Below are positions 1 through 23,546 of a stretch of 54,411 nt of DNA, piece by piece (position 1 is the stretch's first letter; each line of letters begins with the position of its first letter). A program made the translations under genes and the position numbers. The notes beneath the pieces are model-generated. The model saw nothing but the letters and a program-made list of their open reading frames with translations. It ran no database searches and was not told the origin of the DNA. This DNA is from an uncultured Alphaproteobacteria bacterium (GTDB taxonomy: Bacteria > Pseudomonadota > Alphaproteobacteria > RF32 > CAG-239), in NCBI GenBank assembly GCA_947588275.1, contig CANPYJ010000005.1:1-54411 (forward strand), read 5' to 3'.

Positions 1-141
1 CTAAACATCACGCCGGACACACCGGTAGATCTTTCGGAAGATGGTATTTTGATGGTCTTTATTAAGGCAATCATACGACATGAGAACGGCATACAACCAT
101 ACTCTAATGAAACTCTCTTGAAAGGAATACGAATGTCATGA
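1..141 (+). CDS. 3' end of a putative phage endolysin/virion lysozyme-like protein (partial)
   Basis: Frame 1 reads LNITPDTPVDLSEDGILMVFIKAIIRHENGIQPYSNETLLKGIRMS*. The AIIRHENG..PY motif is typical of a phage lysis-region family. The stop overlaps the holin start (ATGA). Confidence 0.5.
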   Translation, partial: LNITPDTPVDLSEDGILMVFIKAIIRHENGIQPYSNETLLKGIRMS

Positions 142-356
142 AAAAGCGGCTTTGGATCCCGGTCCTCGGGTGGATTCTGTGTTACGGGTTCCTCCATAAC
201 TGTTTGATCGCACCTATAACGGGTCTTCCGGTAGTGGACTGGGAGTATTTATTAACGGCCATGGGCATTTTACTCGGTGTAAGTGGCGCACGAGATATTG
301 GATTAAAGGAAAGGCAAAAACAAGATGTTGAACAGAATAACAAAACTTTGGAATAA
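138..356 (+). CDS. Holin (3TM/GTA-holin-like)
   Basis: 72 aa, hydrophobic segments with a W.P.LGW motif, charged C-tail; lies between the putative endolysin and the spanins. Confidence 0.7.
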   Translation: MKKRLWIPVLGWILCYGFLHNCLIAPITGLPVVDWEYLLTAMGILLGVSGARDIGLKERQKQDVEQNNKTLE

Positions 357-546
357 GGGTAAATACTGGATAATCGCCGGAGCGGTGGCCGTCTTATATA
401 TGCTCGGCTATCGGCACGGCAAGGAAAAAGAACAAGTTAAAGTAATGAAAGGAACGGTGGACAATGTTAAAACAGCTAAAAAAAGTCGGGACAGCCTGGC
501 TGATCCTGAGCGCGCTAAGCGGTTGCACAACAAATATAAACGGTGA
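325..546 (+). CDS. Inner-membrane spanin (Rz-like)
   Basis: N-terminal TM helix (YWIIAGAVAVLYMLGY) followed by a charged helical segment; overlapped by a lipoprotein ORF. Confidence 0.65.
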   Translation: MLNRITKLWNKGKYWIIAGAVAVLYMLGYRHGKEKEQVKVMKGTVDNVKTAKKSRDSLADPERAKRLHNKYKR

Positions 547-658
547 TTTTTGCCTTTTATACGAACCGGTGTATGCAGATTATGAGCACGACACCCCCGA
601 AACTGTCCGTCAAATTGATAGAAACAATGTGGTTTACGATGATTTATGTACAAGATGA
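464..658 (+). CDS. Outer-membrane spanin lipoprotein (Rz1-like)
   Basis: Lipobox LSALSG-C, short Cys-containing mature part; overlaps the Rz-like gene in another frame. Confidence 0.7.
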   Translation: MLKQLKKVGTAWLILSALSGCTTNINGDFCLLYEPVYADYEHDTPETVRQIDRNNVVYDDLCTR

Positions 659-661
659 AGC

Positions 662-698
662 AGACTCCGCAGGAACAAAAACCTGCGGGGCTCTTTTT
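662..698 (+). terminator. Rho-independent terminator of the lysis cassette
   Basis: ccgcagg-aacaaaaa-cctgcgg hairpin followed by ctcttttt; lies between convergent genes. Confidence 0.65.
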
Positions 699-2433
699 AA
701 TCAAGTTCTTTTAAATAATCGTTTACCATATCTGTCAAAAGTTGACGCCGTTTTGCTATAAATTCAGGATATTTACTTATATTCCAAAGGCTTTGATCTG
801 TTGGAATACAATGCTTTTTGAAGTTTTCTTCGCCTTTTTTGACAAGAACTTCTGGCAGATATACAGCTGGATCATCATTTTTAATCAAAACATTCGTGCG
901 TTTTACAATAAAGGTTTGGTTAGCAATGTCATTTATTTGATCACGCTCGTATTTTCCTTTTAAGAAATCCTGAGGGAATATATGGTGAAATTCAATTTGA
1001 TTGCGGTTTGCAACGTTATTCATGCTTAAAACTTGAGGTGTATTCCAGTCCAATGCGCCATTATGTCTCATGACTGTAAACATAGTTTTGAAAATGCCAC
1101 TGGCTGTGTTTTTATTTTCAAAATCTGTTGTATGGAAATCAAGTCTGCCGAATTGCATTTTAAGGTTATCCAATAACCCCTGTAAGTTATTGTTTTTGAT
1201 AGCATACAGATCTTGATCCAAAATTGTTTCAGATGAACCTCTTGAATAACGACCTTTTGCATTTGCAATGAGGAACCACTTTTTGATTATTTTTGCCTCG
1301 TTATCCGTAAGAATATTGTTTTTCATGTGGTACAAGAATGAAAGCGATACGATAAAGTACGGTGACGACAATGTCGCATCAGTTTCAAGACCAAACGTAT
1401 TTTTTAGCTCATCCAATGTATGTTCAAGAGCTTTTGTTACTTTCGGCCAAGCGCCTTCCAAATCCTCTTTTGTTAATGACGGCACAATCTTAAATTTTGA
1501 TTGCGATGTCAATATAGCAACAAGTGTTCTGACGATGATGCCTGTGCTGATATCCCAACCATGTTTTTCACAGTTTTCGGCTTCTTTATTGAATTTTATT
1601 AAGGCACCTTCGTTAATTCCCTCCGCTGTTTCAATAGTTGGCCATTTGGCTGTAATTTGCGCTAAAGCCAAATCAGAACCTTTTAGTTTTGTGCCGGCAG
1701 AGTTTACGCGCACAAAAATTTCAGTGACTTCTTCATATGACATACCTGCAGGAAGAGTTTTTACTTGGAAGTCGTAATTTTCTATATTTTTGAGAGCTGT
1801 AAAACGATCCATATATTTCTTTAAACGTTGCTCTCCTTCAGGGGTTTTAATGTCGCCGGCTCTTTGCATAATGTCGGTAACCGATACTTTATTAGCAAAA
1901 ACACCTGCAACAGAAATCCAATTTTGTTGGCTTTTTACAAGCGGGTTTTCAACCACAAAAGCACGACGATTTAAATCATCAAGACGGCTTTTATTTTCTT
2001 CCTCATCTGAAGTAATCTTGATATCATCATCTTCTTCAAACTCTGTTTTATTATCATCATCAGTAGCAACTTTTGTATTTTCCAATTTATCTGGGTGATC
2101 AAGATTAAAATAGATATCAATGGCACGTTTTCTTCCACGTACATTGACAGGCTCGCCGCAAAGGATTGCTTTGAGAGAGGTCAAGCGTTGTTGGCCATCT
2201 AATAACAGATAGTAGGACTCATATTTCGTGTCATCCTGAGAAACCGCAAAATCACGTGTCGGAACCTTTTGTGTTGTTTCCCATCTTAAAATGGTACCAG
2301 TCGGATATTTTCTATACAGAGAATCAAGTAAATCTCTTACTTGTGTAGACTTCCAAACATATGCACGTTGCATTTCCGGAAGACGCATTCTGTTGGATTT
2401 AATTTCATCAATAAGAGTTCTAATTTCAGTCAT
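697..2433 (-). CDS. GmrSD-like (DUF262 + C-terminal HNH/DUF1524) restriction endonuclease
   Basis: DUF262 motifs P..QR.YVW, LLDGQQRLTS and IFVRVNSAG; C-terminal EFHHIFP...N...N HNH-like motif. Confidence 0.85.
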   Translation of the reverse strand: MTEIRTLIDEIKSNRMRLPEMQRAYVWKSTQVRDLLDSLYRKYPTGTILRWETTQKVPTRDFAVSQDDTKYESYYLLLDGQQRLTSLKAILCGEPVNVRGRKRAIDIYFNLDHPDKLENTKVATDDDNKTEFEEDDDIKITSDEEENKSRLDDLNRRAFVVENPLVKSQQNWISVAGVFANKVSVTDIMQRAGDIKTPEGEQRLKKYMDRFTALKNIENYDFQVKTLPAGMSYEEVTEIFVRVNSAGTKLKGSDLALAQITAKWPTIETAEGINEGALIKFNKEAENCEKHGWDISTGIIVRTLVAILTSQSKFKIVPSLTKEDLEGAWPKVTKALEHTLDELKNTFGLETDATLSSPYFIVSLSFLYHMKNNILTDNEAKIIKKWFLIANAKGRYSRGSSETILDQDLYAIKNNNLQGLLDNLKMQFGRLDFHTTDFENKNTASGIFKTMFTVMRHNGALDWNTPQVLSMNNVANRNQIEFHHIFPQDFLKGKYERDQINDIANQTFIVKRTNVLIKNDDPAVYLPEVLVKKGEENFKKHCIPTDQSLWNISKYPEFIAKRRQLLTDMVNDYLKELD

Positions 2434-2449
2434 TTTACATCCTTAAATA

Positions 2450-2950
2450 CTATTTTTTATTAGCATAATGCTTTTTAAAAAGTTCGACAGCTTGTTCTGT
2501 CATTTCTTTTACATCATAGCCTGAAGATATTATATTGCTTGAAATAATTCCTTCTTCGCTTGGGGCTGTCGCTATTTTTTGAAATCTCACGGTAATTTCT
2601 TCTAATACTTCTTTCTCAGCATCTGGTGCATAATTTACTAATAAGGATGCTTGACATACCTTGCTACCCTTAAAATCTTCGTATAATTTAACTTTCATTA
2701 ATTCTGGAATAGTGTTGTATTCCATCACGCCTTGAACATCAACTACTTTTACAGGATGTTGTTCAGCACGCTTGTCAGCTTTAATAAGGGCTTTGTTTAT
2801 CCAGTTAGTATAAGTATCTTTCAACGAATCTTGATTATATCCACAATGTATAACATCCTCATTTTGTTGGATATTACTTCTTTCTCCGAAGAAAAAACCT
2901 ACAAATAGAGACAATACTGCTAATGCAATTATACTCGCTGTATTTTTCAT
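2450..2950 (-). CDS. Hypothetical membrane-anchored/exported protein
   Basis: 166 aa, N-terminal hydrophobic helix, AAAGGGG SD; co-oriented 16 nt upstream of the DUF262 gene. Confidence 0.65.
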   Translation of the reverse strand: MKNTASIIALAVLSLFVGFFFGERSNIQQNEDVIHCGYNQDSLKDTYTNWINKALIKADKRAEQHPVKVVDVQGVMEYNTIPELMKVKLYEDFKGSKVCQASLLVNYAPDAEKEVLEEITVRFQKIATAPSEEGIISSNIISSGYDVKEMTEQAVELFKKHYANKK

Positions 2951-3044
2951 TTAAAGCCCCTTTCGTTTATATAAATAAAATTTTTCACAGTATATCCGTT
3001 GATGATTTAAAATTCAATAACACAATTTTATATTTCATCATGAT

Positions 3045-3641
3045 TTAAATTTTTATCTGTTTTATAAACTCTCTTAATGTATCCCGGTCTACGTGCAATT
3101 GTTTCGCTATTTTGGTTTTACTAATGCCTTTATTCAATAAAGTTTTGATAACATTTTCTTTTCCAGTTAATTTTAGTTGCTTGTTTTTTGTACCTAAAGG
3201 TCTTCCCAAAGTTTTTCCTGCAGCACGACGTGCAGCTAGAGCTTCTTTTGTACGCTGAGAAATCATCTTACGTTCAATTTCTGCAGATAATCCGAATGCA
3301 AATGCTAATACTTTGCTTGAAATGTCATCTCCAAGTTTATAATTGTCTTTAATAGTCCACACGCGTGCATCAGTATCCAATAATTTATTCAGCATTCCCA
3401 TCACCTGTAACAAATTTCTACCTAATCTAGATAGCTCACTTGCAATTATAAGATCATCTTTTTTTATTTTTTTTATTAACTTTCCTAATTTTCGTTTATT
3501 TAAATCGGCGGTTGAACTTATTGTTTCCTCTATCCATTCATCGATATAAAGGTTATTTCTTTTACAAAATTCCTCTATTTCATAATGTTGATTTTCTGTA
3601 GTTTGCTTATCTGTTGAAACGCGAATATATCCGTATATCAT
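3045..3641 (-). CDS. Serine recombinase/DNA invertase (Mpi-like resolvase family)
   Basis: YGYIRVST catalytic Ser motif, ELSRLGR, AEIER..ISQRT, GRP and C-terminal HTH; AAGGA SD. Confidence 0.92.
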   Translation of the reverse strand: MIYGYIRVSTDKQTTENQHYEIEEFCKRNNLYIDEWIEETISSTADLNKRKLGKLIKKIKKDDLIIASELSRLGRNLLQVMGMLNKLLDTDARVWTIKDNYKLGDDISSKVLAFAFGLSAEIERKMISQRTKEALAARRAAGKTLGRPLGTKNKQLKLTGKENVIKTLLNKGISKTKIAKQLHVDRDTLREFIKQIKI

Positions 3642-3665
3642 TTTGTATTCCTTTCTTTAAACTGT

Positions 3666-5036
3666 ATGATAAATCTGCGGTATAATAACGGTCGTATAAA
3701 TTCCGCAGAAACACCGTTTAAAATTCCGGATACATGGATGTGGGTAAAATTAGGAGATATTGCGGATCTATATACAGGTGATAGTATTCCTGAATTAGTA
3801 AAAACAACAAAATATACGAATATAGAAACTGGCTATGATTACATTGGAACTAAAGATGTTGGTTTTGACAATATGATAGCGTATAATAATGGTGTAAAAA
3901 TTCCTTATGATGAAAAAGGATTTAAATATGCTTATGACACATCAATTTTACTTTGTATTGAAGGTGGCAGTGCTGGTAGAAAAATTGGAAAATTAAAAAC
4001 AAAAGTTTGTTTCGGCAATAAATTGTGCGCGATAACACCTTTCGGCTTTGATAACTCTTATTTGTATTATTTTTTACAGTCAGATTTTTTCCGCTTCATG
4101 TTTAATGAGCAAAATAGCGGTATCATTGGTGGAGTAAGTATAAAAAAGATGTTTGAGCTTTCTATTCCTTTACCACCGTTGGCAGAACAAAAACGGATAG
4201 TAGAGAAGATAGAGGAATTGGAACCACTGATTAATCGGTATGGAAAAGCGTCGGAAGAATTGGCTCGTATAAAATCCGCATTTCCGGAAGATTTAAGAAA
4301 TTCTATTTTACAACAGGCTGTTGAGGGAAAATTAGTGCCACAAAACCCTGCAGACGAGCCCGCTGGCGAACTATTGAAACGAATTAAACAAGAGCGCCAA
4401 CAGCAAATTAAAGAAGGAAAAATTAAGCCGTCTAAATTGCCGAAATCAAACGAGCCTTTAAATCCCGCAGATATGCCATTTAAAATACCTGATTCCTGGA
4501 TATGGCAAAGATTAGACAATGTAGGAATATACAAGAAAGGACCTTTTGGAAGTTCGCTAACGAAGGGTATATTTGTTGAAAAATCTGATAATACAGTGAA
4601 AGTTTACGAACAGAAAAATGCAATATATAAAGATGAAAAGTTGGGTAATTACTATATTACAAATGATTATTTTGAACAAAAGATGAAAGGATTTGAAGTT
4701 TTTCCAGGTGATATTATTGTTAGTTGTGCAGGAACAATAGGAGAAACCTTTGTTCTGCCTGATAACATGGAAAAAGGCATTATAAACCAAGCTTTGATGA
4801 AAATAAAAATTAGCAACTATATATATGTTCCTTATTTTCTTGTATATTTTGATTTTATAATTAAAGAAACATCTTCCAATCAAAGTAAAGGTTCGGCTAT
4901 AAAAAATATTCCACCATTTGATATTTTTAAGCAACTGCCAATTCCCATACCACCATTGACGGAGCAAAAGCGGATAGTCAAAAAAATAAAGGACTTAGAC
5001 CTGTTAATTAATAATTTGTTCGAGCTTATTGCTTGA
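3666..5036 (+). CDS. hsdS: Silent hsdS cassette (TRD1b + TRD2b) lacking the N-terminal ~55 aa of the expressed hsdS
   Basis: Two TRDs with PLPPLAEQKRIV spacers; no SD before the ATG; inverted relative to the operon copy and shares two repeats with it. Confidence 0.85.
   Translation: MINLRYNNGRINSAETPFKIPDTWMWVKLGDIADLYTGDSIPELVKTTKYTNIETGYDYIGTKDVGFDNMIAYNNGVKIPYDEKGFKYAYDTSILLCIEGGSAGRKIGKLKTKVCFGNKLCAITPFGFDNSYLYYFLQSDFFRFMFNEQNSGIIGGVSIKKMFELSIPLPPLAEQKRIVEKIEELEPLINRYGKASEELARIKSAFPEDLRNSILQQAVEGKLVPQNPADEPAGELLKRIKQERQQQIKEGKIKPSKLPKSNEPLNPADMPFKIPDSWIWQRLDNVGIYKKGPFGSSLTKGIFVEKSDNTVKVYEQKNAIYKDEKLGNYYITNDYFEQKMKGFEVFPGDIIVSCAGTIGETFVLPDNMEKGIINQALMKIKISNYIYVPYFLVYFDFIIKETSSNQSKGSAIKNIPPFDIFKQLPIPIPPLTEQKRIVKKIKDLDLLINNLFELIA
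3687..3763 (+). repeat. Inverted repeat IR1-left (77 bp)
   Basis: aacggtcgtataaattccgcag...ggagatattgc; exact reverse complement of 6259-6335. Confidence 0.95.
4164..4505 (+). repeat. Inverted repeat IR2-left (342 bp)
   Basis: Reverse complement of 5517-5858; one mismatch seen (KIKPSK vs KIKLSK). Confidence 0.95.
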
Positions 5037-6497
5037 ATCCATTAAATTTTCAACCTTTTTCACGATTTTTTTCTGTTCATTATATGGTGGCATAGGAAAG
5101 GGATATGTCGCAAAAATATCACTTGGAACACGCTGTTGTCCTGCCGTTCCGGTCATATTATTGCTTGCATATTTCATAAAAAAAGGACTTTTAAGATAAA
5201 TTAACACATAGTAAGGATTTATATTAATGCCTCTAAATACATGCAATTCCGTTGTTCCTGCTCCATAACCATTAAACAAATTATGTAAAACAGACGATTT
5301 TTTATTTTCAAAACAAGGTGTTATTTTTGCCATAATTACATCACCATCTTTTAGATGTGTGTAGCCAGATTTTACATCCTTCCATAATTTCTTTTCATCT
5401 ACATTTACAGAAACATTATATTTAGATGAAATTTTATCCATTGGAATAAAGGAAACTTCTAAATTATCTTCTATAACATTTCGTGGATTAATTAGACCGA
5501 TTTCTGACAGAGACGTCCATATCCAGGAATCAGGTATTTTAAATGGCATATCTGCGGGATTTAAAGGCTCGTTTGATTTCGGCAATTTAGACAGCTTAAT
5601 TTTTCCTTCTTTAATTTGCTGTTGGCGCTCTTGTTTAATTCGTTTCAATAGTTCGCCAGCGGGCTCGTCTGCAGGGTTTTGTGGCACTAATTTTCCCTCA
5701 ACAGCCTGTTGTAAAATAGAATTTCTTAAATCTTCCGGAAATGCGGATTTTATACGAGCCAATTCTTCCGACGCTTTTCCATACCGATTAATCAGTGGTT
5801 CCAATTCCTCTATCTTCTCTACTATCCGTTTTTGTTCTGCCAACGGTGGTAAAGGAATCATGAGATTATATAAACTAGATGAATTTAGCGTTTTTCCCTT
5901 AATCGCCTCTTTTGTATCCGTCGTCAATGTAGTTAAATAAGGCAGAACCTTATATAAATATTTAGTTGTATTTTTCTCTATATCTATAAAAGGGAAAATG
6001 GATACTATGGCCTCATTATGAAAAGCATCCATTCCTAATATCGAAACTTTACCTATAGTTAATTTAAAACTCATGAGCAAAGTACCTTGTCGCGAAATTC
6101 TATTCTTAAATACCTCTATATTGGCCTTTTCTGATACTCCTTCTTTTGTTGAATTAATTACTTCTCCATCTATCAAATCAGCAATAGATACCCAAGGATA
6201 ATTTTTTTCCCAATATTCAAAATCGTTGCGTGATGGTGTTTTTCCCATAGGAAAATCAGCAATATCTCCTAATTTTACCCACATCCATGTATCCGGAATT
6301 TTAAACGGTGTTTCTGCGGAATTTATACGACCGTTTTTTTTCTGCGATTTTATTTTTCCTTCTTTAATCAGCTTATTCTTTTCAGCTTGAATCCGCTCAT
6401 ACAGTAGGCTTGCCGGTTCGTCTGACGGATCTTGTGAAACGAGACGACCAGATATTGCGAGCTGCAGTATAGAATTTTTAAGATCAATTGCTTTCAT
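5004..6497 (-). CDS. hsdS: Type I RM specificity subunit, expressed copy (TRD1a + TRD2a)
   Basis: Directly abuts the hsdM stop; full N-terminal LKNSILQLAISGRLV..DEPAS region; two TRDs. Confidence 0.93.
   Translation of the reverse strand: MKAIDLKNSILQLAISGRLVSQDPSDEPASLLYERIQAEKNKLIKEGKIKSQKKNGRINSAETPFKIPDTWMWVKLGDIADFPMGKTPSRNDFEYWEKNYPWVSIADLIDGEVINSTKEGVSEKANIEVFKNRISRQGTLLMSFKLTIGKVSILGMDAFHNEAIVSIFPFIDIEKNTTKYLYKVLPYLTTLTTDTKEAIKGKTLNSSSLYNLMIPLPPLAEQKRIVEKIEELEPLINRYGKASEELARIKSAFPEDLRNSILQQAVEGKLVPQNPADEPAGELLKRIKQERQQQIKEGKIKLSKLPKSNEPLNPADMPFKIPDSWIWTSLSEIGLINPRNVIEDNLEVSFIPMDKISSKYNVSVNVDEKKLWKDVKSGYTHLKDGDVIMAKITPCFENKKSSVLHNLFNGYGAGTTELHVFRGININPYYVLIYLKSPFFMKYASNNMTGTAGQQRVPSDIFATYPFPMPPYNEQKKIVKKVENLMDSSNKLEQIIN
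5517..5858 (-). repeat. Inverted repeat IR2-right (342 bp)
   Basis: Partner of 4164-4505; central conserved region of hsdS. Confidence 0.95.
6259..6335 (-). repeat. Inverted repeat IR1-right (77 bp)
   Basis: Partner of 3687-3763; precedes TRD1 in the expressed hsdS. Confidence 0.95.
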
Positions 6498-7955
6498 TTA
6501 ATTTATTCCTAATATTTTTTTAATTTGAGTAATTACTTCCGACATTTCAGTTTCTAACGCGGCTTTTTGTTGTTCAAACTGTTCAAACAGCTCCTTTGGT
6601 TCCAGTATAACGTTTTCTATCGTTGGATAGCCGCAAAGATCTAAATTAAAATTCCTAGTTTTCAATTCTTCAAATGAATATTTTTTCGCTTTATCAAAGC
6701 CATCTTCTTGAATTTCTTGTCTATTATTCCACCATTCTCTAACAGGATCAAAGTGTTCTAGTTGCATCGGTTTTGTTTTATTAAAAGCTTTTATGCCCTC
6801 AGGCATGTCTAATCTATAGAACCATGTTTCTTTAGTTTGACCTTTTTTATCAAAGAACAGAAGGTTTGTATTAATGCTAGTGTATGGCGCAAAAACGCTT
6901 TTTGGTAATCTGATGACCGTATGTAAATTACATTTTGTGAGTAATTCTTCTTTAATGCGAGTTTTAGCACCACCTTCTCCGAATAGTGCGCCGTCAGGTA
7001 GAACCATAGCGCATCTTCCTGTATTTTTAAGCAGTTTAATAATAAGTACTAAAAACAGATCGGCTGTTTCTTTTGTCCTGACATGTGCCGGAAAATTAGA
7101 TTCTATTCCATCTTCTTCTTCGCCGCCAAATGGTGGATTAGTCAGAATTATATCTACCTTATCTTTTTCAGAATAATCACTTAATGGACGAGCCAAACTG
7201 CCGTTTATAAAGTGTTTAATATTTGGTGCGTCTATTCCGTGTAAAATCATATTTGTTGTACAAAGAATATATGGAAGCTGTTTCTTTTCCCAACCCATAA
7301 TACAGTCGTGTAGCGTATTAAAAGCTTGACCTGTTTTTAATTGAGGATTTAGATACTTAACGGCAGAAGCCAAAAATCCGCCAGTACCGCATGCTGGGTC
7401 TAAGATTTTCTCGCCTAATTTTGGAGCCGTCATTTCCACCATAAACTGAGTAACAGCACGTGGAGTATAGAACTCTCCAGAATGTTTATTATTTTGAAGG
7501 TCTTTTAATAATTGTTCATAAATATCCCCAAATAAATGTTTGTCGGTCCCTTTATTAAAATCAATTTCATCTATCTTATTGATAACCTGACGAAGTAATT
7601 GTCCAGATTTCATATAATTATGAGTATCTTCAAAAACAGATCGGACCATAGCAGCATTTGGATCAGAAATATCTAATTGTTTAAGTCCAGGGAACAGTTC
7701 TTTATTTACAAAATCTAGCAACTCTTCGCCAGTTATACCTTCATCATTCTCTGCCCATGAAGACCATTTTAATTTTTCGGGAATTGGAGATACGTAATCA
7801 TCGTTGATAAGAATATTTTCTTTTTCTCTATCGGAAAAGATTTTTAAAAATAGCATCCAAGTAAGTTGTCCCAGTCTTTGAGCATCGCCATCGACGCCAG
7901 GGTCTTTACGCATAATTTTTTGAATGGATTTTACAATTTGGCTTACATTTGACAT
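6498..7955 (-). CDS. hsdM: Type I RM methyltransferase subunit (m6A)
   Basis: GEFYTPR, DPACGTGGFL and NPPF motifs; start MSNVSQ preceded by GGAGG in the hsdR tail. Confidence 0.95.
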   Translation of the reverse strand: MSNVSQIVKSIQKIMRKDPGVDGDAQRLGQLTWMLFLKIFSDREKENILINDDYVSPIPEKLKWSSWAENDEGITGEELLDFVNKELFPGLKQLDISDPNAAMVRSVFEDTHNYMKSGQLLRQVINKIDEIDFNKGTDKHLFGDIYEQLLKDLQNNKHSGEFYTPRAVTQFMVEMTAPKLGEKILDPACGTGGFLASAVKYLNPQLKTGQAFNTLHDCIMGWEKKQLPYILCTTNMILHGIDAPNIKHFINGSLARPLSDYSEKDKVDIILTNPPFGGEEEDGIESNFPAHVRTKETADLFLVLIIKLLKNTGRCAMVLPDGALFGEGGAKTRIKEELLTKCNLHTVIRLPKSVFAPYTSINTNLLFFDKKGQTKETWFYRLDMPEGIKAFNKTKPMQLEHFDPVREWWNNRQEIQEDGFDKAKKYSFEELKTRNFNLDLCGYPTIENVILEPKELFEQFEQQKAALETEMSEVITQIKKILGIN

Positions 7956-7956
7956 T

Positions 7957-10314
7957 CTATTTGCCTCCATACATCAAACGTTCTAATTTTTCTATAGTAT
8001 TTAAATATTCTTCATTACCGCCGATTTTTCCAAATAATTCTACAGGCCTACCGAACTTTTTCTCAAAATCTGGGGTTTCTAAAGTTTTTCTATCTTCAAA
8101 CGCATAAATTCCGAATTCTACATACTTAGATAATACATCAATATAAAAATCTTTCTTTCCATCAGGTAGTTGTGCTAAAAATTCTTTACAAAAATCAGCA
8201 CGTTGAAAACGCGTTATAGGTTCAATATCGTAAGTATTTTTAAGAATTATATCAAAAATATCAATATCTGCTGGATATATAGCCTTTAATTCTTTTATAA
8301 TTAAACCCTCATCAATCAAATGTTTTATAAAAGCCGTCTTCTTACGAGCCCCCGTCCATGCAGACCGAAAAGAATCCTCCGTATCATATCGTTTCAATAT
8401 GAAATTTTTATAATAATCCTGTATATTCTCGCTTATAAGCTTTCCATTTTCATCTAACCACTGAACTCTTTTGTCTACAATAGATACAGGAACATCATCA
8501 ATTACATATTTATTATTTTGTGGTTCTTCATCAATAACTTCACCACCTTCCCATTCTCCTTCTGATATTTCTTCTGGATCTTCTTCTATAGTCCATTCAT
8601 CCGGTTCATCGTTTGGTTCTTCAACATCAGCACCAGCTACAACTTTTATTTCTGTCGGATAACCATCAAATTCTGGATCTGCGAATAATTTTGTCGCCTT
8701 ACGAAAATCCATGATAGTGAAGTAATATTTCTGATATTCTTCATTTACACGCGTTCCTCGGCCTATAATCTGTTTAAATTCTGTCATTGAGTTTACTGTT
8801 CTATCAAGGACAATCAACTTACAGAGCTTTGCATCTACACCAGTTGTCATAAGTCGAGACGTAACAGCAATAACCGGATATTTTTCATCCAACGCAATAA
8901 AATTATCTAACTCTTGTTTCCCTTCTAAATTGTCACCGGTAATCTGCATAACATACTTACTATTCTCTTTCATCAGATCATCGGCAACCTTTGCTATAGC
9001 ATTTCTCATTCGCATAGCATGATTAATATTTTCACAAAAGATAATTGTTTTTGCATATGGATCATTTTCACGCAGAAATTTTATAACACATTTTGCCACA
9101 CATTCTGTTCTAGCATTGAGTATTATATCTTTATCGTAATCTTTTTCCGTATATTCCTTATCAGGAATCTCATTACCATATTTATCCAATTTTCCAAATT
9201 CTGGTCTCCACCCCAAGTCCTTATCTAATATTACCCTCATTACTTTATAAGGAGCGAGAAAGCCATCAGCGATACCTTCTTTTAAGGAGTATGTATAAAT
9301 AGGTTTACCAAAATACTGACTTGTAGAAATATCTCTATCTTCTTTTGGTGTGGCGGTCATACCTATTTGAGTTGCTGAACTAAAATATTTTAGAATTTCA
9401 TGCCATGATGAATTTTCTTTGGCAGAGCCACGGTGACATTCATCAACAATTATTAAATCAAAGAAATCTTGAGAAAACTGCTTATATATATTTTTCTCTT
9501 CTTCTGTTCCCGTTACTGCTTGATACAGAGATAAATATATTTCATAAGCCTTATCAACGCTCCTATTTTCTATCTTTGTCATAGCATTACCAAATGGTGC
9601 AAAATCTTGGACTTTTGTCTGATCTATTAAAATATTCCTATCAGCCAAAAATAAAATACGTTTTTTTTGCTTAGATTTCCACAAACGCCAGATAATCTGA
9701 AATGCAGTATAGGTCTTTCCTGTTCCTGTAGCCATCACTAAAAGAATACGCTTTTCACCGCGAATCACCGCTTCTACAGTTTTGTTAATAGCATTTCTCT
9801 GGTAATATCTTGGTTCTTTACCAGAAGTATCTACATAATAATCTGATAAAATATTATTACCTTCTGTTTGGGAAATTTGTTTCGCTTGCTTATATCTTTC
9901 CCACAATTCTTCAGGTGTCGGGAACTCGTTAATTGCTAATTCTCGTTCTTTTCCTGTTAGAAAATCATGTTCATAAAAACCTTTACCATTTGAGCTATAT
10001 GCAAAAGGAACATTCAAACATTCTGCGTATGCCATACCTTGTTGTAATCCATCACTCACATCTTTATGAAATTTTTTTGCTTCTACAATTGCTATAGGAA
10101 AATTCGGCTTATAAAAAAGCAAATAATCAGCTTTTTTTCTTTTACCTTTGCGGATTTCTTTATCTTTTACCATTATTCTGCCATTAGTGAATAGGTACTC
10201 CATTCTTATTTGGGTTTCAGAATGCCATCCTTTATTAGTAATAGCAGGTGTAATCTCGATACGTTTTGTATCTTCCTCAGATAAATTTTTATATTTTACA
10301 TAAACATCATTCAT
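7957..10314 (-). CDS. hsdR: Type I RM restriction subunit (EcoAI/EcoEI, type IB-like)
   Basis: ADY...EAKK nuclease motif, MATGTGKT, DECH, TATP and QIIGRGTR; ~785 aa; ATG overlaps the WYL gene stop (ATGA). Confidence 0.95.
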   Translation of the reverse strand: MNDVYVKYKNLSEEDTKRIEITPAITNKGWHSETQIRMEYLFTNGRIMVKDKEIRKGKRKKADYLLFYKPNFPIAIVEAKKFHKDVSDGLQQGMAYAECLNVPFAYSSNGKGFYEHDFLTGKERELAINEFPTPEELWERYKQAKQISQTEGNNILSDYYVDTSGKEPRYYQRNAINKTVEAVIRGEKRILLVMATGTGKTYTAFQIIWRLWKSKQKKRILFLADRNILIDQTKVQDFAPFGNAMTKIENRSVDKAYEIYLSLYQAVTGTEEEKNIYKQFSQDFFDLIIVDECHRGSAKENSSWHEILKYFSSATQIGMTATPKEDRDISTSQYFGKPIYTYSLKEGIADGFLAPYKVMRVILDKDLGWRPEFGKLDKYGNEIPDKEYTEKDYDKDIILNARTECVAKCVIKFLRENDPYAKTIIFCENINHAMRMRNAIAKVADDLMKENSKYVMQITGDNLEGKQELDNFIALDEKYPVIAVTSRLMTTGVDAKLCKLIVLDRTVNSMTEFKQIIGRGTRVNEEYQKYYFTIMDFRKATKLFADPEFDGYPTEIKVVAGADVEEPNDEPDEWTIEEDPEEISEGEWEGGEVIDEEPQNNKYVIDDVPVSIVDKRVQWLDENGKLISENIQDYYKNFILKRYDTEDSFRSAWTGARKKTAFIKHLIDEGLIIKELKAIYPADIDIFDIILKNTYDIEPITRFQRADFCKEFLAQLPDGKKDFYIDVLSKYVEFGIYAFEDRKTLETPDFEKKFGRPVELFGKIGGNEEYLNTIEKLERLMYGGK

Positions 10315-11261
10315 AATGTTTTCCACATCTTTCTTTCATCAAAATCTTCCGGTTGAATGACCTTTACATGTTTACCCCATGTGTAAAGATGCCAATCCAT
10401 TTCAAGTGCGCCACCGGCACGGAATTTTACGGTTAAGGTACCGTCCGGATTGCGGATTGCTTCTTGCCTCGGATGAAATGTATATTGAGCCGCGGAATCT
10501 GCAACTTCTGCATCAAACAGCCATTCAACATCAAATGGTTTTTCTTGGTAAACCCCAAAGGCTTGTTCGCTGAATTCCTTAAGCGAGAAATGAGGATCGC
10601 GCTTGAAGTATGTATTTAAGACTTCAATTTCCTTGATTTTATTCAGGTTAAAGTGACACATCTTGCGCTTTGTTGGATTCCAAGCAATAAGGTAGTGTTT
10701 ATTTCCATACAAAAAGCCATAAGGGTACAACTCGCGCCAGTCCTTGTTGTGCGCAGAATCATATTTTATTTTAATGCGGTTGCACGCAATAATTGCGTAC
10801 CTGAGTTGTTTTAAGTGCTCGGTGTTGATGATAATCTTTGGTCCGGGCCGGAAAGCGTAACCTTCAGCTTCCAAAAGTGCTTCGGCATCCGGTTCGATCC
10901 TGTTTGTGGCATCTTTACCGATGATGGCTTTTATTTTATGTAAAACAGTATCAACGTAGTGCGCATCTAGTATACTTTTTGTTGCCAAAAGTTTTGAAGC
11001 ATTTTGCAAGGCGTGGATCTCTTCCATAGAAAAATTGACCATTTCGCGGCCGGTCCCCTTAGGCAAATACCAACGTTTTGTATTATAACGACCGTTAATT
11101 TCTTTTAATTGAGGGTATTTATCGGCGATGGAATCTTTCATACGAACCGCTGTCCGGAGAGAGACATCATACTTTTCCATGATGTCTTTAAGAGAAACGC
11201 CGTCATCTGTGTCCTGCATCCACAAAATCAGGTCATTGAGCGTCTGCGTTTTTTTATACAT
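10311..11261 (-). CDS. HTH-WYL-WCX transcriptional regulator
   Basis: N-terminal wHTH (YDVSLRTAVR), WYL core (LYPYGFLYGNKHYLIAW...FNLNKI), WCX-like tail (VKVIQPED). Confidence 0.9.
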   Translation of the reverse strand: MYKKTQTLNDLILWMQDTDDGVSLKDIMEKYDVSLRTAVRMKDSIADKYPQLKEINGRYNTKRWYLPKGTGREMVNFSMEEIHALQNASKLLATKSILDAHYVDTVLHKIKAIIGKDATNRIEPDAEALLEAEGYAFRPGPKIIINTEHLKQLRYAIIACNRIKIKYDSAHNKDWRELYPYGFLYGNKHYLIAWNPTKRKMCHFNLNKIKEIEVLNTYFKRDPHFSLKEFSEQAFGVYQEKPFDVEWLFDAEVADSAAQYTFHPRQEAIRNPDGTLTVKFRAGGALEMDWHLYTWGKHVKVIQPEDFDERKMWKTL

Positions 11262-12121: not shown

Positions 12122-15100
12122 TTGATGCTATTGGTTGAAAATGTTTTGCATGAATTTTTAAATGATTTCTTAAATAAAAGAAATCTTCCGTTCCCCGATG
12201 GACGGATGCTTTATGCATATCAGATGAATCAACGTGAATATCTTGAATTAAAAGAAAAACTTAATGAACTCTGTCAAAATGAAGAATTAGTTGATTTATT
12301 AAGGAATAAAGATTTCTCAAGATGTTTTGTTTTGTATGCTTCAGAGTGGTGGAAACGTGAATACAGCGGTGGCGTTTGGTCCTGGGAACCTATATTTAAA
12401 ACCATCTCTAATGATGAAATAAAAACCCATCAAGTTCAGGTTAGATCAAGAGCTATTACAGAAGCTCTAGAGTATTGGAAATACCGCAATTCACTGGCAA
12501 CAGGAAAAAAATTCTTAGGTGCTATTATTGCCAATGGTGGTCTTCCTTCAAAATTTATGCAATCTGACAAGTATTCATCTATTGTTAGAGTCTTGCGCGG
12601 AATTCTAAGGTTTGCCGGCGAAAATAATGCTAATGATAATGAATTATTTATGCGCACAAAAGAAGCAGTAAAAAAACTGCCGGAAGCAATTAGAAAAGAC
12701 GAAATATGTGAGTTAATAGCAAATTTAGTCAGTACAATTATTAAATTAAAAAGAGATTATGAACTTGAAAAAGAAACGCACCCAGTTCAAATCCTCAATC
12801 AACGTTGTCCTTCATGGAAAGAACAATTTCCTTTATTAATGGAAGATGCTTCTGTTGAAAAAATGCTCGTTGGGTTTGTTGAAGAAGCGAGTAGAATAAA
12901 CAGAAACAATGTAAGAGGTAAAATTCCATCCGTAGATCGAATTTTTGATTTTTCTGAATCTGATCAATTAAAATTTTTATTTACTTTTCCTGAATTTGAT
13001 GTCTCAGCCGCGTATTTTTCAAAATTTTTTGAAATTTCCAATGCCGAGGAATTGCCACAAACATTTTATATCAATAATTTAGACCTGAAAAATACTACAG
13101 TTGCCATTGTTACAATGCAATTAGGCTCTAGAAAAAAATACAAAATCAAAAAGTTTGATAATAGACTAGATAATGTCCTAAATTCAGTGACAATTTCTCT
13201 GTCATCAGCAGATAACAAAATACACTCGAAATTAGTTACAATATCAGAAAAACTTGATATCAATGCACCTTTCGTCTTTATAAAAAACGACGATGATACA
13301 TTAATTTTGAAAAGTAACGGAAGTACATATTTAAGAGAAAATGAATGTTATATTGCATATAAACCAGGCATTTTTGATCTATCTGAATTTGGAACGCTTG
13401 AGCGCACTGTGCATATTGGTAATAGCGAATTGCCTTTGATAAAATGTACTTCGGATATCGAAACGGAACAGTTCTTCGTAAAGCTGAATGCTTCTAATCC
13501 GTCAAATAATAAGTATTGTTTGGACGGTAATATTATATCTTACAAGGCTTATCCTCATGTTGCATATAAAGGTGTGCCTGAAGTGGTTTGTTATGATGAA
13601 GATGGCAAACGCGTTACAATTGCATCAAAGTATATTACCTATTACCACAAGGGGACTAATCTTCCTATCACTGATATTCAAAATTTTTCGGGAACTGTAG
13701 ATATTCATTGTAACCATGGGGATATAGAAAGAGTTTATACGGTCACTATATTCCCGGCGGATCTTGAAATAAAATTTGATGTAAGTGATGGGGAATACAT
13801 AAAATTCAGTGATATGAATTGTATAAAAATTTTGCCTGTCGTTGATAAAAATGTCCAGTTCACTGAAATAGCTAAAAATGAGTTCAAATTTCATTATTTA
13901 GGCCAAAAACCTGATAAAGTATGCTTTAAAATTTATTGGTACAGTGGTGGCACATCTTTCATTTACATTCCATATCCGTGTATGGGTGTTTCATTTTTTG
14001 ATGAAAACGGAAAGTGTATAGATCTTTTTAACATTTCTATACTGCATCTAATGGGTAAAAAAATCAAAATTTATAACAACCTAACGAAATCTGAAAAATA
14101 TAAATTAGTTTTTAAATTAGAAAGAGCAAATAAAAAAGGAAAACAAGTAGAAAACTCTCGCCCAATATTTACTTATGATTCATTAACAGAAATTAAATTA
14201 ATTGACTTTGAAGACAACATTAAGAATTTACTTGGGTATTCTGATGACGAAAATGATTTAATCAAAGTTTCCGTACAGCTTAACAATAAGGAAATGGGGT
14301 TCATTAGAATTTCTCGCTATGATACCTATTTCGTTTTAGAAAATAGCACCATTTCTATACCAAGTGATCAATTTAGAATTTATTCTAATGAAATGTTAAA
14401 GAATACAAATGTAGTAGCAATTAATTTGCTTGATCCAGAAGTTCCTGTAATCCCGCTAGCTCAAAATACTGACAGTGGTATATTTACTGGATATTGGAAC
14501 ATTGAAAATCTTGATTCGTCCGCAAATACTTACATGATAACATCTGATCAAAAATCAGATATATCTATTAAACCTTTTATTTTATGTAAAGATAAGGCTT
14601 TTGAAAGTTTATCTGATTTTCACAAAAAAATTATAATATCAGATATTGTATCGGTAAATAGCGGTTCGACAATTACTTGCTCCTCAGATGATTTGGAGAC
14701 GTATTTAATAAGCGGACTTCATTCTTATAAATCAGAATTGTGGAAAGATATTGGGGATTTGAAGCAAGTTTTTGCCACTCAGAATATTTCTTTAACCGCT
14801 CTTAAATTATGGCAGGTTCTATGTTCCAATGAATTCCTGTTGGCAAGACTATTATTGTTCTGTTCCTCGGAACGAATCATTATGCAGAAAATAAGAGATG
14901 AGCTTATCTCTGTCCCGGCCATCATCTCTTTTGCTACATGGGAAGCGGCTATAACTGAATATTTACAATATTTGCGTGAAGCTTTTGCAAAAATTCCAGG
15001 TATGGAATCGATGCTGAAAAGTATGATATCAGAACAATTTAAGGTTCTGACCGATACATTTCCCGAAATCGAGGTAACTGTTTACTATTTACTTTTCAAA

Positions 15101-15589: not shown

Positions 15590-15596
15590 GAAAAAC

Positions 15597-23473: not shown

Positions 23474-23546
23474 AATTTTTCCGATTGTAAAATTTAAAAT
23501 TAATGATAGCATAATTTGCATGTGCGACAAGGAGAAAGTTTAAACT

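What the first reader, a model, noticed from the sequence alone, without database searches (positions are those of the whole stretch)
3045..6497. Serine-invertase-linked four-state hsdS shufflon in a prophage-borne type I RM system
Seen: the expressed hsdS (5004-6497, minus strand, abutting hsdM) and an SD-less, 5'-truncated hsdS (3666-5036, plus strand) face each other. They share two nested inverted repeats: IR1 is 77 bp and exact (3687-3763/6259-6335, before TRD1); IR2 is 342 bp with one mismatch (4164-4505/5517-5858, between TRD1 and TRD2). The four TRDs differ from each other. A serine recombinase gene starts 46 nt from IR1. Established: invertible hsdS loci (pneumococcal ivr/SpnIII, Mycoplasma pulmonis hsd) switch methylation specificity, and these well-studied cases use tyrosine recombinases. 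Inference: inversion at IR1 swaps both TRDs and inversion at IR2 swaps only TRD2, giving 2x2=4 specificities. Here the switch would be run by an Mpi-like serine invertase, on a prophage, in an Alphaproteobacterium.
Basis: partly seen in the sequence, partly recalled or inferred. Interest (0 to 1): 0.85.

Follow-up and report, generated by a model that had tools for sequence, protein, structure and literature searches.

The report
Serine-invertase hsdS switch on prophage island
A gut bacterium carries a restriction-modification system whose DNA-recognition gene can probably be flipped between four versions by a neighbouring serine recombinase; this kind of switch is already known, but with a rarely reported enzyme class.

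Summary
An Mpi-family serine recombinase gene (3045-3641, -) lies 45 nt from two convergent hsdS genes. These share an exact 77-nt repeat and a 342-nt repeat with one mismatch, and they follow intact hsdM and hsdR genes. In-silico inversion at either repeat, or both, keeps the expressed hsdS open (497/503/503/497 aa). The four TRDs are 14-27% identical.

Two assemblies of one 99%-identical strain (L001, L081) carry the window's expressed TRD1 in the silent slot. More distant relatives express the window's silent TRDs. Inversion within one population could not be tested, because the public contigs break at the repeats.

The locus sits in a 33% GC defence island (GmrSD-like, Druantia III). In L081 that island directly follows lambda-like tail genes.

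Among 165 relatives of the recombinase, 10 sit beside hsdS and 45 beside Type IIG specificity cassettes. A shared half-site marks the repeat ends.

Serine recombinases beside hsdS, and Mpi-family enrichment at programmed inversions, are already in print. I rate it a new member of a known kind.

The parts
3045..3641 (-). Mpi-family serine DNA invertase, 198 aa. An AAGGAA Shine-Dalgarno-like motif lies about 8 nt before its ATG.
   Evidence: Pfam Resolvase 111 bits. NCBIfam NF009949 303.6 bits against cut-off 272. phmmer to Gin invertase 4m6f, E 2.5e-12, with Ser9 in 'YIRVSTDKQ' aligned to Gin Ser9. Sequence read.
3666..5036 (+). Recombinase-proximal hsdS' (storage copy), 456 aa. It carries TRD B1 (about 3764-4163) and TRD B2 (about 4506-5033), and lacks the N-terminal ~47 aa of the expressed copy.
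   Evidence: Methylase_S with two stretches; translation; TRD limits taken from the repeat edges.
5004..6497 (-). Expressed hsdS, 497 aa, starting one base after the hsdM stop. It carries TRD A1 (about 5859-6258) and TRD A2 (about 5007-5516).
3687..3763 (.). IR1, recombinase-side arm (77 nt, exact). It encodes NGRINSAETPFKIPDTWMWVKLGDIAD in frame in both genes.
6259..6335 (.). IR1, hsdM-side arm.
4164..4505 (.). IR2 arm in hsdS' (342 nt, 1 mismatch). It is the central conserved region between TRD1 and TRD2.
5517..5858 (.). IR2 arm in the expressed hsdS.
3675..3708 (.). Candidate crossover site for IR1: a 34-bp dyad CTGCGG-N22-CCGCAG with its centre at 3691|3692, on the outer edge of IR1. Its mirror is at 6314-6347. 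Inferred.
   Evidence: Sequence read. Half-site PWM trained on other loci scores 11.5 (3690-3708) and 12.0 (6329-6347). The same core, AACGG-TC-GTATAAAT, is seen in L002.
4437..4470 (.). Candidate crossover site for IR2: a 34-bp dyad TTGCCG-N22-CCGCAG with its centre at 4453|4454. Its mirror is at 5552-5585. Inferred.
   Evidence: PWM 11.4 and 9.3. The short single repeats of relatives L003 (59 nt) and L082 (79 nt) cover just this stretch.
6498..7970 (-). hsdM, 490 aa.
   Evidence: N6_Mtase 247.5 bits, HsdM_N 46.8 bits.
7957..10326 (-). hsdR, 789 aa, EcoAI/FtnUII family.
   Evidence: NF046051 1046 bits against cut-off 550; ResIII, EcoEI_R_C, HSDR_N.
10311..11261 (-). WYL/WCX-domain protein at the head of the hsdR-hsdM-hsdS gene string, overlapping the hsdR start by 16 nt. 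Its regulatory role is inferred.
   Evidence: WYL 41.7 bits, WCX 31.8 bits; PADLOC WYL 78.4 bits.
1..653 (+). Phage-derived segment that follows the J-like tail gene in relatives. It marks the left edge of the cargo island.
   Evidence: 88-94% identical to IMG/VR contigs L176-L179 directly downstream of J; homology ends at about 653. Contiguous in L081 and L001.

Best explanation
This is an invertible specificity locus of an intact EcoAI-family type I restriction-modification system.

Only the hsdS that starts one base after hsdM (5004-6497, -) is placed to be expressed with the enzyme. The facing 5'-truncated hsdS' (3666-5036, +) stores two further TRDs.

The adjacent Mpi-family serine invertase (3045-3641) is proposed to bind as dimers to 34-bp dyad sites and to exchange strands at their central dinucleotide. 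One site pair sits at the outer edge of IR1 (3675-3708 / 6314-6347). The other sits near the TRD2 end of IR2 (4437-4470 / 5552-5585).

Inversion between the IR1 sites swaps both TRDs. Inversion between the IR2 sites swaps TRD2 only. Together they give A1A2, B1B2, A1B2 and B1A2, each an open hsdS. That would mean up to four bipartite methylation and restriction specificities in one clone.

The different centres of the two site types (..ACGG|TCGT.. against ..ACGA|GCCT..) would keep IR1 from recombining with IR2.

The module is cargo of a low-GC defence island at a variable hotspot downstream of the tail-tip gene of a lambda-like prophage of an uncultured gut alphaproteobacterium.

Shown: the anatomy; in-frame compatibility of all four states; family membership of the enzyme; an alternative arrangement in a near-identical strain; repeated co-occurrence of this recombinase family with specificity cassettes.

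Inferred: that inversion is ongoing; that this paralogue catalyses it; the exact crossover sites; that hsdS' is silent; that four distinct motifs result.
For: 1. Anatomy and repeats were confirmed. Both repeats are in frame in both genes. All four in-silico states keep the expressed hsdS open at 497/503/503/497 aa, and the TRDs are 14-27% identical.

2. The enzyme is NF009949 at 303.6 bits against a 272 cut-off. Its Ser9 aligns with Ser9 of Gin.

3. An alternative state exists. L001 (MAG contig; its end overlaps IR2 by 77 nt) and L081 (57-kb metagenome contig; its end overlaps IR2 by 55 nt) are 98.96% identical to window 2-3767. After IR1 they continue into the reverse complement of window 6254-5782 and 6254-5804 respectively. 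So TRD A1 (100% aa) sits in the recombinase-side slot.

4. TRD modules are reassorted between slots in relatives:
- B1 is 88.6% (L082) and 84% (L003) identical to expressed TRD1s, and 77% identical to L084's recombinase-side copy.
- A2 is 78% identical to L003's expressed TRD2.
- B2 is 79% identical to L082's expressed TRD2.

5. In the sheep MAG G042, both the recombinase-side contig and the hsdM-side contig end at IR1.

6. Co-occurrence. Of 165 loci encoding relatives (47-100% aa), 10 have Methylase_S and 45 a TaqI_C-type TRD cassette within 1.5 kb. Another 35 have under 600 nt of upstream flank, and 75 have other neighbours.
- Pfam confirmed 7 of the 10 hsdS loci and 4 of the 45 cassette loci. 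The rest rest on iterated phmmer.
- 24 of the 55 loci have near-exact inverted repeats with an arm within 1.3 kb of the recombinase gene, some only 24-31 nt long.

7. Site.
- In 12 of 25 arms, a 19-nt half-site ends exactly at the repeat end (read by eye from the coordinates).
- In loci not used for training, a site of 14 bits or more lies within 250 nt upstream of the recombinase in 17 of 27 Type IIG loci. The downstream control gave 1 of 27 and shuffles 0.
- In the window, also not used in training, the five best hits within the island 1-22000 all lie in or across the edge of the repeat arms.
- The motif lies on opposite coding strands in hsdS and in Type IIG genes, so it is not a protein-level echo (read by eye).
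Against: - No read-level evidence of two orientations in one sample. The 16 holder runs are kept only as k=31 contigs, which break at the repeats and cannot show orientation.
- L001 and L081 are probably one strain, since their identity figures are the same. They differ from the window by about 1%, so the difference is between strains. An assembler's choice at a 77-nt repeat cannot be fully excluded. The reciprocal hsdM-side junction was not found in L001's bin.
- The genome has five Mpi-family paralogues. IR2 is long enough for RecA-dependent recombination.
- Support for the site model in this clade is weak. The window's sites score 11.4-12.0 bits and rank 6th and 8th-11th in the whole window, behind five hits in the GC-rich host part. 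In the hsdS class, 0 of 6 untrained loci reach 14 bits. The motif was found by eye on the same kind of data, and many loci are kin.
- 75 of 165 relatives sit beside unrelated genes, such as a glycoside hydrolase or an adhesin. Adjacency is therefore not a rule of the family.
- The promoter scan showed no excess over shuffles, so expression of either hsdS or of the recombinase is unassessed.
- The HTH_7 match is below Pfam's cut-off.
Confidence: 0.7

Rival explanations
1. The locus does switch, but by general homologous recombination (RecA) across the long repeats, or through one of the four other Mpi-family paralogues acting in trans. The adjacent recombinase would serve another target.
For: IR2 is 342 nt, and IR1 is 77 nt exact (99 nt at 92%). 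Five paralogues exist in a 1.39-Mb genome. Mpi of Bacteroides fragilis is known to act on distant sites (title of Coyne et al. 2003 as cited in PMC7641763; the paper itself is not held). A search listing shows a pneumococcal study reporting spnIII recombination independent of known site-specific recombinases (PMC6620402, title and abstract start only).
Against: Relatives keep the recombinase next to specificity cassettes whose repeats are only 24-59 nt, too short for efficient RecA exchange. Half-sites coincide with repeat ends. The other four paralogues have no long exact repeats nearby and no hsdS.
Confidence: 0.15
2. The arrangement is a frozen relic: a past duplication and inversion whose repeats are kept by selection on the HsdS conserved regions, with no inversion going on today.
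For: Both repeats encode conserved HsdS segments. L013 has the same gene order but no repeat of 18 nt or more. No within-sample heterogeneity could be shown.
Against: Nucleotide identity is 77 of 77 and 341 of 342, while the neighbouring TRDs are 14-27% identical. That needs ongoing homogenisation. A 99% relative holds the other arrangement. The recombinase ORF is intact with its catalytic serine.
Confidence: 0.1
3. The recombinase belongs to the prophage as a Gin/Cin-type tail-fibre invertase or a resolvase, and lies next to hsdS by chance.
For: Tail genes lie about 4 kb away in L081. The best PHROG hit is 'DNA invertase' (phrog_125, 154.8 bits). Bacteroides phage B124-14 has a 58% identical invertase.
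Against: GmrSD and an ORF of 166 aa separate it from the tail genes. The only long inverted repeats within 2000-9000 are the hsdS ones. Relatives without any phage context keep the pairing with hsdS or a TRD cassette. The phage contigs L176-L179 share the tail region but show no similarity to the window beyond 653, so none to this recombinase gene.
Confidence: 0.05

Closest known systems
Four-way and six-way invertible type I hsdS loci (Streptococcus suis SsuCC20p; S. pneumoniae SpnIII/ivr with PsrA/CreX)
   Same: There are two or more hsdS copies in inverted orientation, in-frame repeats before TRD1 and between TRD1 and TRD2, one expressed slot next to hsdM, and a locus-encoded recombinase. 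A 2x2 = 4 state logic is described for S. suis (PMC7394358, passages read).
   Different: Those loci use tyrosine recombinases (PMC7672463, passages). Here the enzyme is a small serine invertase, the host is a gut alphaproteobacterium, and the locus rides on a prophage-linked defence island.
Serine-recombinase-associated hsdS invertons of Huang et al. 2020 (clade 5, representative MfiA of Mycoplasma fermentans)
   Same: A serine-family recombinase is encoded in a type I locus with several hsdS copies. That association was also bioinformatic only. [quoted passage not shown]
   Different: They found 6+1 of 827 loci. In their NCBI search, clade 5 was limited to Mycoplasma. 'Alphaproteobacteria' has 0 occurrences in the main text. 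Whether any of their loci is Mpi-family is in Supplementary Table S5, which I could not open.
Mpi, the master DNA invertase of Bacteroides fragilis (NCBIfam NF009949)
   Same: Same curated family by HMM score, about 200 aa, with an N-terminal catalytic serine.
   Different: Mpi flips promoters of many distant polysaccharide loci (recalled, and from the title cited). Here the presumed targets are two local coding-sequence repeat pairs. The recalled Mpi repeat consensus could not be checked.
Programmed inversions of Type II RM genes (Cj0031 homologues, DISARM-like, BREX PglX) and the enrichment of Mpi-family recombinases beside inversion targets (Milman et al. 2023)
   Same: 45 of the 165 relatives of this recombinase sit beside a TaqI_C-type TRD cassette, mostly convergent to a large Type IIG gene (Eco57I/MmeI_Mtase/TaqI_C, about 1130-1290 aa), several with nested repeats. 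The paper lists the Mpi family as 16-fold enriched next to targets.
   Different: The target here is a type I hsdS. The paper names recombinase target motifs as future work.
Hin/Gin/Cin/Pin invertases
   Same: Serine invertase fold and an aligned catalytic Ser9. Short dyad crossover sites at repeat ends are the expected mode of action.
   Different: Only distant similarity (E 2.5e-12). The proposed sites are 34 bp against the recalled 26 bp. No Fis enhancer was looked for. The targets are not flagellin or tail-fibre genes.

Membership tests
Type I restriction-modification system (hsdR-hsdM-hsdS) | HsdR with SF2 helicase and nuclease regions | tested here: met
   NF046051 EcoAI/FtnUII subunit R 1046 bits against cut-off 550; ResIII 158.8 bits.
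Type I restriction-modification system (hsdR-hsdM-hsdS) | HsdM N6-adenine methyltransferase, and HsdS with two TRDs | tested here: met
   N6_Mtase 247.5 bits; Methylase_S with two stretches in both hsdS copies.
Invertible hsdS locus (epigenetic inverton / phase-variable type I system) | Two or more hsdS copies in opposite orientation sharing in-frame inverted repeats, all recombinants open | tested here: met
Invertible hsdS locus (epigenetic inverton / phase-variable type I system) | Locus-encoded site-specific recombinase | tested here: met
   Serine invertase 45 nt from IR1.
Invertible hsdS locus (epigenetic inverton / phase-variable type I system) | Both orientations present within one population | tested here: inconclusive
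   k=31 contigs of 4 runs break at the repeats and cannot tell orientation. The other arrangement was seen only in a strain differing by 1%.
Invertible hsdS locus (epigenetic inverton / phase-variable type I system) | Each variant methylates a different motif | not testable with these tools
   Needs SMRT or nanopore methylome data. Only TRD divergence of 14-27% is known.
Mpi-family serine DNA invertase (NF009949) | Score above the curated equivalog cut-off | tested here: met
   303.6 bits against 272.
Mpi-family serine DNA invertase (NF009949) | Catalytic serine in the N-terminal YxRVSTxxQ motif | tested here: met
   Ser9 aligned with the Ser9 position of Gin (4m6f); 3uj3 has Ala at that position.
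Mpi-family serine DNA invertase (NF009949) | C-terminal helix-turn-helix DNA-binding domain | tested here: inconclusive
   HTH_7 21.1 bits, below the 23.8 cut-off. The NF009949 match spans residues 1-196.
Mpi-family serine DNA invertase (NF009949) | Global action on many distant promoter invertons | not tested
   No search for distant sites beyond a PWM scan of this window.
Prophage-borne cargo | Contiguity with phage structural genes | tested here: inconclusive
   Met in relative L081: J-like protein phrog_469 513 bits, K-like NlpC/P60, L-like DUF1833, and through window 2-653 against IMG/VR contigs. Not met in the window's own bin, where the contig ends at position 1 and no tail genes are found.
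Prophage-borne cargo | Integrase, attachment sites, head and terminase genes of the same element | not tested
   The L081 record beyond 9171 is not held.

The most novel reading that the evidence does not exclude
One lineage of Mpi-family serine invertases may be specialised for restriction-modification specificity switching. It would travel between phyla together with a storage cassette, beside Type IIG enzymes in Bacteroidota and beside type I hsdS in gut Alphaproteobacteria and in the four metagenome loci L109, L124, L129 and L140. It would recognise a conserved dyad of about 34 bp built of two YTGYNNRAAWWWAWWCGNCC half-sites, whose centre marks the repeat boundary. In this window, a single enzyme would then work two orthogonal site pairs that differ in their centres (..ACGG|TCGT.. 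and ..ACGA|GCCT..). The result would be a four-state restriction barrier delivered by a prophage's defence hotspot.
Probability: 0.4. Interest if true: 0.6.

Novelty: new member of a known kind. Interest (0 to 1): 0.42.

Why it matters
Phase-variable type I systems change both phage resistance and, through the methylome, gene expression. Nearly all studied examples use tyrosine recombinases.

As of Huang et al. 2020, no serine recombinase had been reported to catalyse hsdS inversion. None of the papers listed by my searches reports one in its title or abstract start. A compact 3.5-kb locus with one small invertase and two site pairs would be an easy system for that test.

The comparative result may be more useful than the single locus: this recombinase family recurs beside type I and Type IIG specificity cassettes, with a shared half-site at the repeat ends. 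Milman et al. 2023 name recombinase target motifs as open work.

The locus also shows a prophage hotspot downstream of the tail-tip gene that carries different RM cargo in related phages. In this case the phage would give its host a variable rather than a fixed restriction barrier.

Tried and rejected
- Read-level test of orientation. The look-up of sequencing runs gave 16 holders in 8 studies, all kept as Logan contigs. The three raw-read runs listed are seawater runs that are not indexed as holders, and I did not lay them. Read laying on X1, X2, X8 and X14 showed contigs that stop at the repeat edges and no joint across them, so it gave no information on orientation.
- Reciprocal junction in L001's genome bin. 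Only the one contig is present.
- Fetching more of L081's 57-kb record to look for head, terminase and integrase genes. The record is not held.
- Plasmid collection, megablast with the locus: no match.
- Promoter and terminator scan: 19 promoter-like sites against 17.6 expected, so uninformative.
- The 13-nt motif T[AT]TAAA[AT][TC]CCGCA occurs six times, only inside the repeats. I first took it for a DNA site. It lies in the same frame and encodes similar peptides (RINSAE, RIKSAF, PLNPAD), so by itself it may be a protein repeat. The dyad model rests on other evidence.
- A strict regular expression for the half-site found it in only 11 of 29 arms. I replaced it with a PWM.
- PWM in the whole window. 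The hits in or at the repeat arms are not the top hits (ranks 6 and 8-11). They lead only inside the low-GC island, and that restriction was made after the fact.
- Mpi repeat consensus. It is recalled from memory and was not found in the library. Coyne et al. 2003 is not held. It is therefore not used as evidence.
- The ORF of 166 aa (2450-2950) has no hit in Pfam, NCBIfam, PHROGs or PADLOC. Among the first 80 loci, phmmer found it only in L001. I do not count it as part of the switch.
- Supplementary tables could not be opened (Huang 2020 Table S5; Milman 2023 Table S4). They may list this recombinase family or similar loci.

Full report
**Observation**

The window is one whole contig (C5) of a 1.39-Mb, 39-contig genome that is rated 100% complete. 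At the flagged coordinates the ORF list and Pfam give the following.
- A 198-aa resolvase-fold protein at 3045-3641 (-).
- A 456-aa Methylase_S protein at 3666-5036 (+).
- A 497-aa Methylase_S protein at 5004-6497 (-).
- hsdM at 6498-7970 (-) and hsdR at 7957-10326 (-).
- A WYL/WCX protein at 10311-11261 (-).

The two hsdS genes converge and overlap by 33 nt. The minus-strand copy starts one base after the hsdM stop.

IR1 is exact over 77 nt (3687-3763 / 6259-6335). IR2 is 342 nt (4164-4505 / 5517-5858) with one mismatch. Neither occurs elsewhere in the genome.

In Logan contigs of four runs from four studies, the pieces break exactly at the repeat edges. In X1, X2 and X8 the repeat pieces carry more depth than the unique pieces. 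The structure is therefore not an artefact of this one assembly.

**The genes**

- hsdR scores 1046 bits on the EcoAI/FtnUII model, against a cut-off of 550. hsdM is a full N6_Mtase.
- It aligns with the Gin invertase (4m6f, E 2.5e-12), with Ser9 of 'YIRVSTDKQ' on the Ser9 position of Gin.
- The plus-strand hsdS' starts inside the conserved N-terminal region and lacks about 47 residues. No Shine-Dalgarno-like motif precedes it. The recombinase has AAGGAA about 8 nt before its ATG.

**Does the geometry work?**

Both repeats are in the same frame in both genes. I inverted the window in silico at IR1, at IR2 and at both. The expressed hsdS stays open in every state (497, 503, 503 and 497 aa) and carries A1A2, B1B2, A1B2 or B1A2. 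The four TRDs are 14-27% identical to each other.

**Evidence that it moves**

Public runs gave no read-level answer. All 16 holder runs are stored as k=31 contigs, which cannot cross or orient a 77-nt inverted repeat.

Assemblies did help.
- L001 (a MAG contig) and L081 (a 57-kb metagenome contig) match window 2-3767 at 98.96%. After IR1 they run into the reverse complement of window 6254-5782 and 6254-5804 respectively. So TRD A1 (100% aa) sits in the recombinase-side slot, where the window has B1.
- These two contigs end 77 and 55 nt into IR2, so they come from different assemblies. They probably represent one strain.
- The reciprocal junction is not in L001's bin.
- In more distant relatives the same TRD types sit in other slots. 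B1 is 88.6% and 84% identical to the expressed TRD1 of L082 and L003, and 77% identical to L084's recombinase-side copy. A2 is 78% identical to L003's expressed TRD2. B2 is 79% identical to L082's expressed TRD2.
- In the sheep MAG G042, both flanking contigs stop at IR1.

This is what an active or recently active shufflon would leave behind. It is not proof of switching within a clone.

**The recombinase family and its neighbours**

I collected 165 loci encoding relatives of 47-100% identity: 80 from species genomes, 80 from metagenomes and 5 from viral contigs. I then classified the genes within 1.5 kb of each recombinase gene.
- 10 have Methylase_S: L001, L003, L013, L081, L082, L084, L109, L124, L129 and L140. 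Seven of these were confirmed with Pfam.
- 45 have a TaqI_C-type TRD cassette, mostly convergent to a Type IIG gene of about 1130-1290 aa (Eco57I/MmeI_Mtase/TaqI_C). Four were confirmed with Pfam and the rest rest on iterated phmmer. L009 was first mis-sorted as hsdS.
- 35 have under 600 nt of upstream flank, because the contig ends there.
- 75 have other neighbours. Those sampled include a glycoside hydrolase, a Type III mod/res pair and a YadA-type adhesin.

The other hsdS-linked loci have one full hsdS, one half-gene of 191-247 aa and a single repeat pair of 31-79 nt, so they would be two-state switches. L013 has no repeat. Several Type IIG loci have two or three nested repeat pairs.

On a FastTree of 168 sequences:
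- The window groups with L001 and L081 (support 98), and then with L082 and L002 (support 97).
- Seven hsdS-linked sequences, the window's included, lie in one clade of 25 (support 99).
- The other four lie inside the Bacteroidota Type IIG clade.
- The hsdS label needs at least four changes on the tree, so the pairing with hsdS arose or was swapped more than once.

**A candidate recombination site (exploratory)**

In the shortest repeats of other loci (24-31 nt), the arm ends with a 19-nt pattern, YTGYNNRAAWWWAWWCGNCC. I built a PWM from 21 unique sites in 25 arms. The window and its close kin L003 and L082 were left out.
- By my reading of the coordinates, the 3' end of the site is exactly the end of the repeat in 12 of 25 arms.
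- In L034, L055 and one arm of L040, two half-sites overlap by 4 nt and form a 34-bp dyad.
- In loci not used for training, a site of 14 bits or more lies within 250 nt upstream of the recombinase gene in 17 of 27 Type IIG loci. The equal-length downstream control gave 1 of 27 and shuffles gave 0.
- The same test gave 8 of 35 in short-flank loci (control 0 of 35) and 2 of 75 in 'other' loci (control 1 of 75).
- It gave 0 of 6 in the hsdS class, whose sites are more divergent.

In the window:
- The dyad CTGCGG-N22-CCGCAG at 3675-3708 has its centre at 3691|3692, on the outer edge of IR1. Its outer half-site differs between the two arms, and the mirror is at 6314-6347.
- A second dyad lies at 4437-4470, inside IR2 and 36 nt from its TRD2 end. 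The mirror is at 5552-5585.
- The short repeats of L003 and L082 cover just this second stretch.
- The window's half-sites score 11.4-12.0 bits. They are the five best hits inside the island 1-22000, but rank only 6th and 8th-11th in the whole window.
- By my reading, the core lies on opposite coding strands in hsdS (GRINSAE) and in Type IIG genes, so protein homology does not explain it.
- The two site types differ at the centre (ACGG|TCGT against ACGA|GCCT). For a serine recombinase this would block IR1 x IR2 exchange. That step is inference from the established mechanism of serine recombinases.

**Context**

Positions 1-22000 have about 33% GC, against about 50% for the rest of the window and the genome. 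The island holds:
- a GmrSD-type nuclease (PADLOC HEC-05, 174.8 bits),
- the RM operon,
- Druantia type III genes: DruH 319.7 bits and DruE 1945 bits.

Genes to the right of 22 kb are ordinary chromosomal genes.

In L081, the DNA left of the window's first base carries lambda-like tail genes: a J-like protein of 744 aa (phrog_469, 513 bits), a K-like NlpC/P60 protein and an L-like DUF1833 protein.

Window 2-653 is 88-94% identical to four IMG/VR contigs just downstream of the same J gene, and the similarity ends at about 653. At that point the related phage contig L178 carries a different type I system (EcoR124-type HsdR), and L181 carries an SNF2 helicase and a DNA methylase.

The hsdS switch is therefore cargo at a variable defence hotspot of a prophage family. 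The window's own bin lacks the tail genes, so for this genome the link is by inference from a 99% relative.

The record titles of L001 and L002 name uncultured Alphaproteobacteria. The holder runs are labelled bovine, chicken-gut, rabbit-gut and gut metagenomes.

**What is known**

- Invertible hsdS loci are common. A four-way switch is described in S. suis (PMC7394358, passages read).
- Huang et al. 2020 (PMC7672463, passages read) sorted 827 inverton-linked recombinases. Clades 1-4 are tyrosine enzymes. Serine enzymes were found in 6+1 loci. [quoted passage not shown]
- Milman et al. 2023 (PMC9881135, passages read) list the Mpi family as 16-fold enriched next to predicted inversion targets. 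They confirm inversions in Type II RM genes by long reads, and they name recombinase target motifs as future work.
- For B. fragilis, the type I shufflon is ascribed to nearby tyrosine recombinases (PMC7641763, passages read).
- My searches listed no paper whose title or abstract start reports a serine recombinase shown to invert hsdS. The library lacks most subscription journals, and I could not open supplements.

**Verdict**

It is a new member of a known kind, with an enzyme class rarely reported for hsdS, and not a new kind of system. The wider pattern and the candidate site are the parts worth following up.

Noticed in passing
window 12122-21608: Druantia type III pair: DruH (1155 aa, PADLOC 319.7 bits) and DruE (2003 aa, 1945 bits). 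It lies on the same low-GC island as the RM system.
   Followed up: partly
window 697-2433: GmrSD-type nuclease (Pfam GmrSD_N 112.7 bits; PADLOC HEC-05 174.8 bits). It sits between the phage-derived segment and the recombinase gene. A 166-aa ORF at 2450-2950 has no family hit in four libraries.
   Followed up: partly
window 10311-11261: WYL/WCX-domain protein whose gene overlaps the hsdR start by 16 nt, so it heads the RM gene string. It may regulate the operon, as WYL regulators do in other defence islands (recalled).
   Followed up: no
G000 C1:150478-151065, C3:100-681, C12:15519-16091, C13:17178-17762: Four more Mpi-family paralogues (52-63% aa) in a 1.39-Mb genome, none beside hsdS. The C13 copy has a 73%-identical inverted repeat (17816-17929 / 19064-19176) just upstream. 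Congeneric genomes also carry several copies.
   Followed up: partly
G000 C4:23147-31745: A second, unrelated type I RM system. One of its hsdS TRDs is 54% identical to TRD B1 of the window.
   Followed up: no
L178 9500-17801; L181 13466-20961: Related IMG/VR phage contigs carry other defence cargo at the same place downstream of the J-like tail gene. L178 has an EcoR124-type type I RM plus SNF2 and endonuclease genes. L181 has an SNF2 helicase and an N6_N4 DNA methylase.
   Followed up: partly
L149 5503-7031 and L150 6279-7807: Type IIG loci with three nested inverted-repeat pairs next to an Mpi-family invertase. L018, L036 and L040 have two pairs.
   Followed up: partly
L052 3056-7797: A Type III mod/res pair (N6_N4_Mtase + EcoP15I_C; ResIII + RE_endonuc) lies directly beside an Mpi-family invertase in a roe-deer rumen alphaproteobacterial MAG. 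I did not look for repeats there.
   Followed up: no
window 21962-23530: PIF1-like helicase fused to a C-terminal WYL domain, at the right edge of the low-GC island but with host-like GC of 54%.
   Followed up: no
35 of 165 loci, e.g. L039, L058, L122, L136: Contigs end within 0-600 nt upstream of the recombinase gene. In 8 of the 35, the remaining flank holds a half-site of 14 bits or more. Assemblies seem to break at these repeats.
   Followed up: partly
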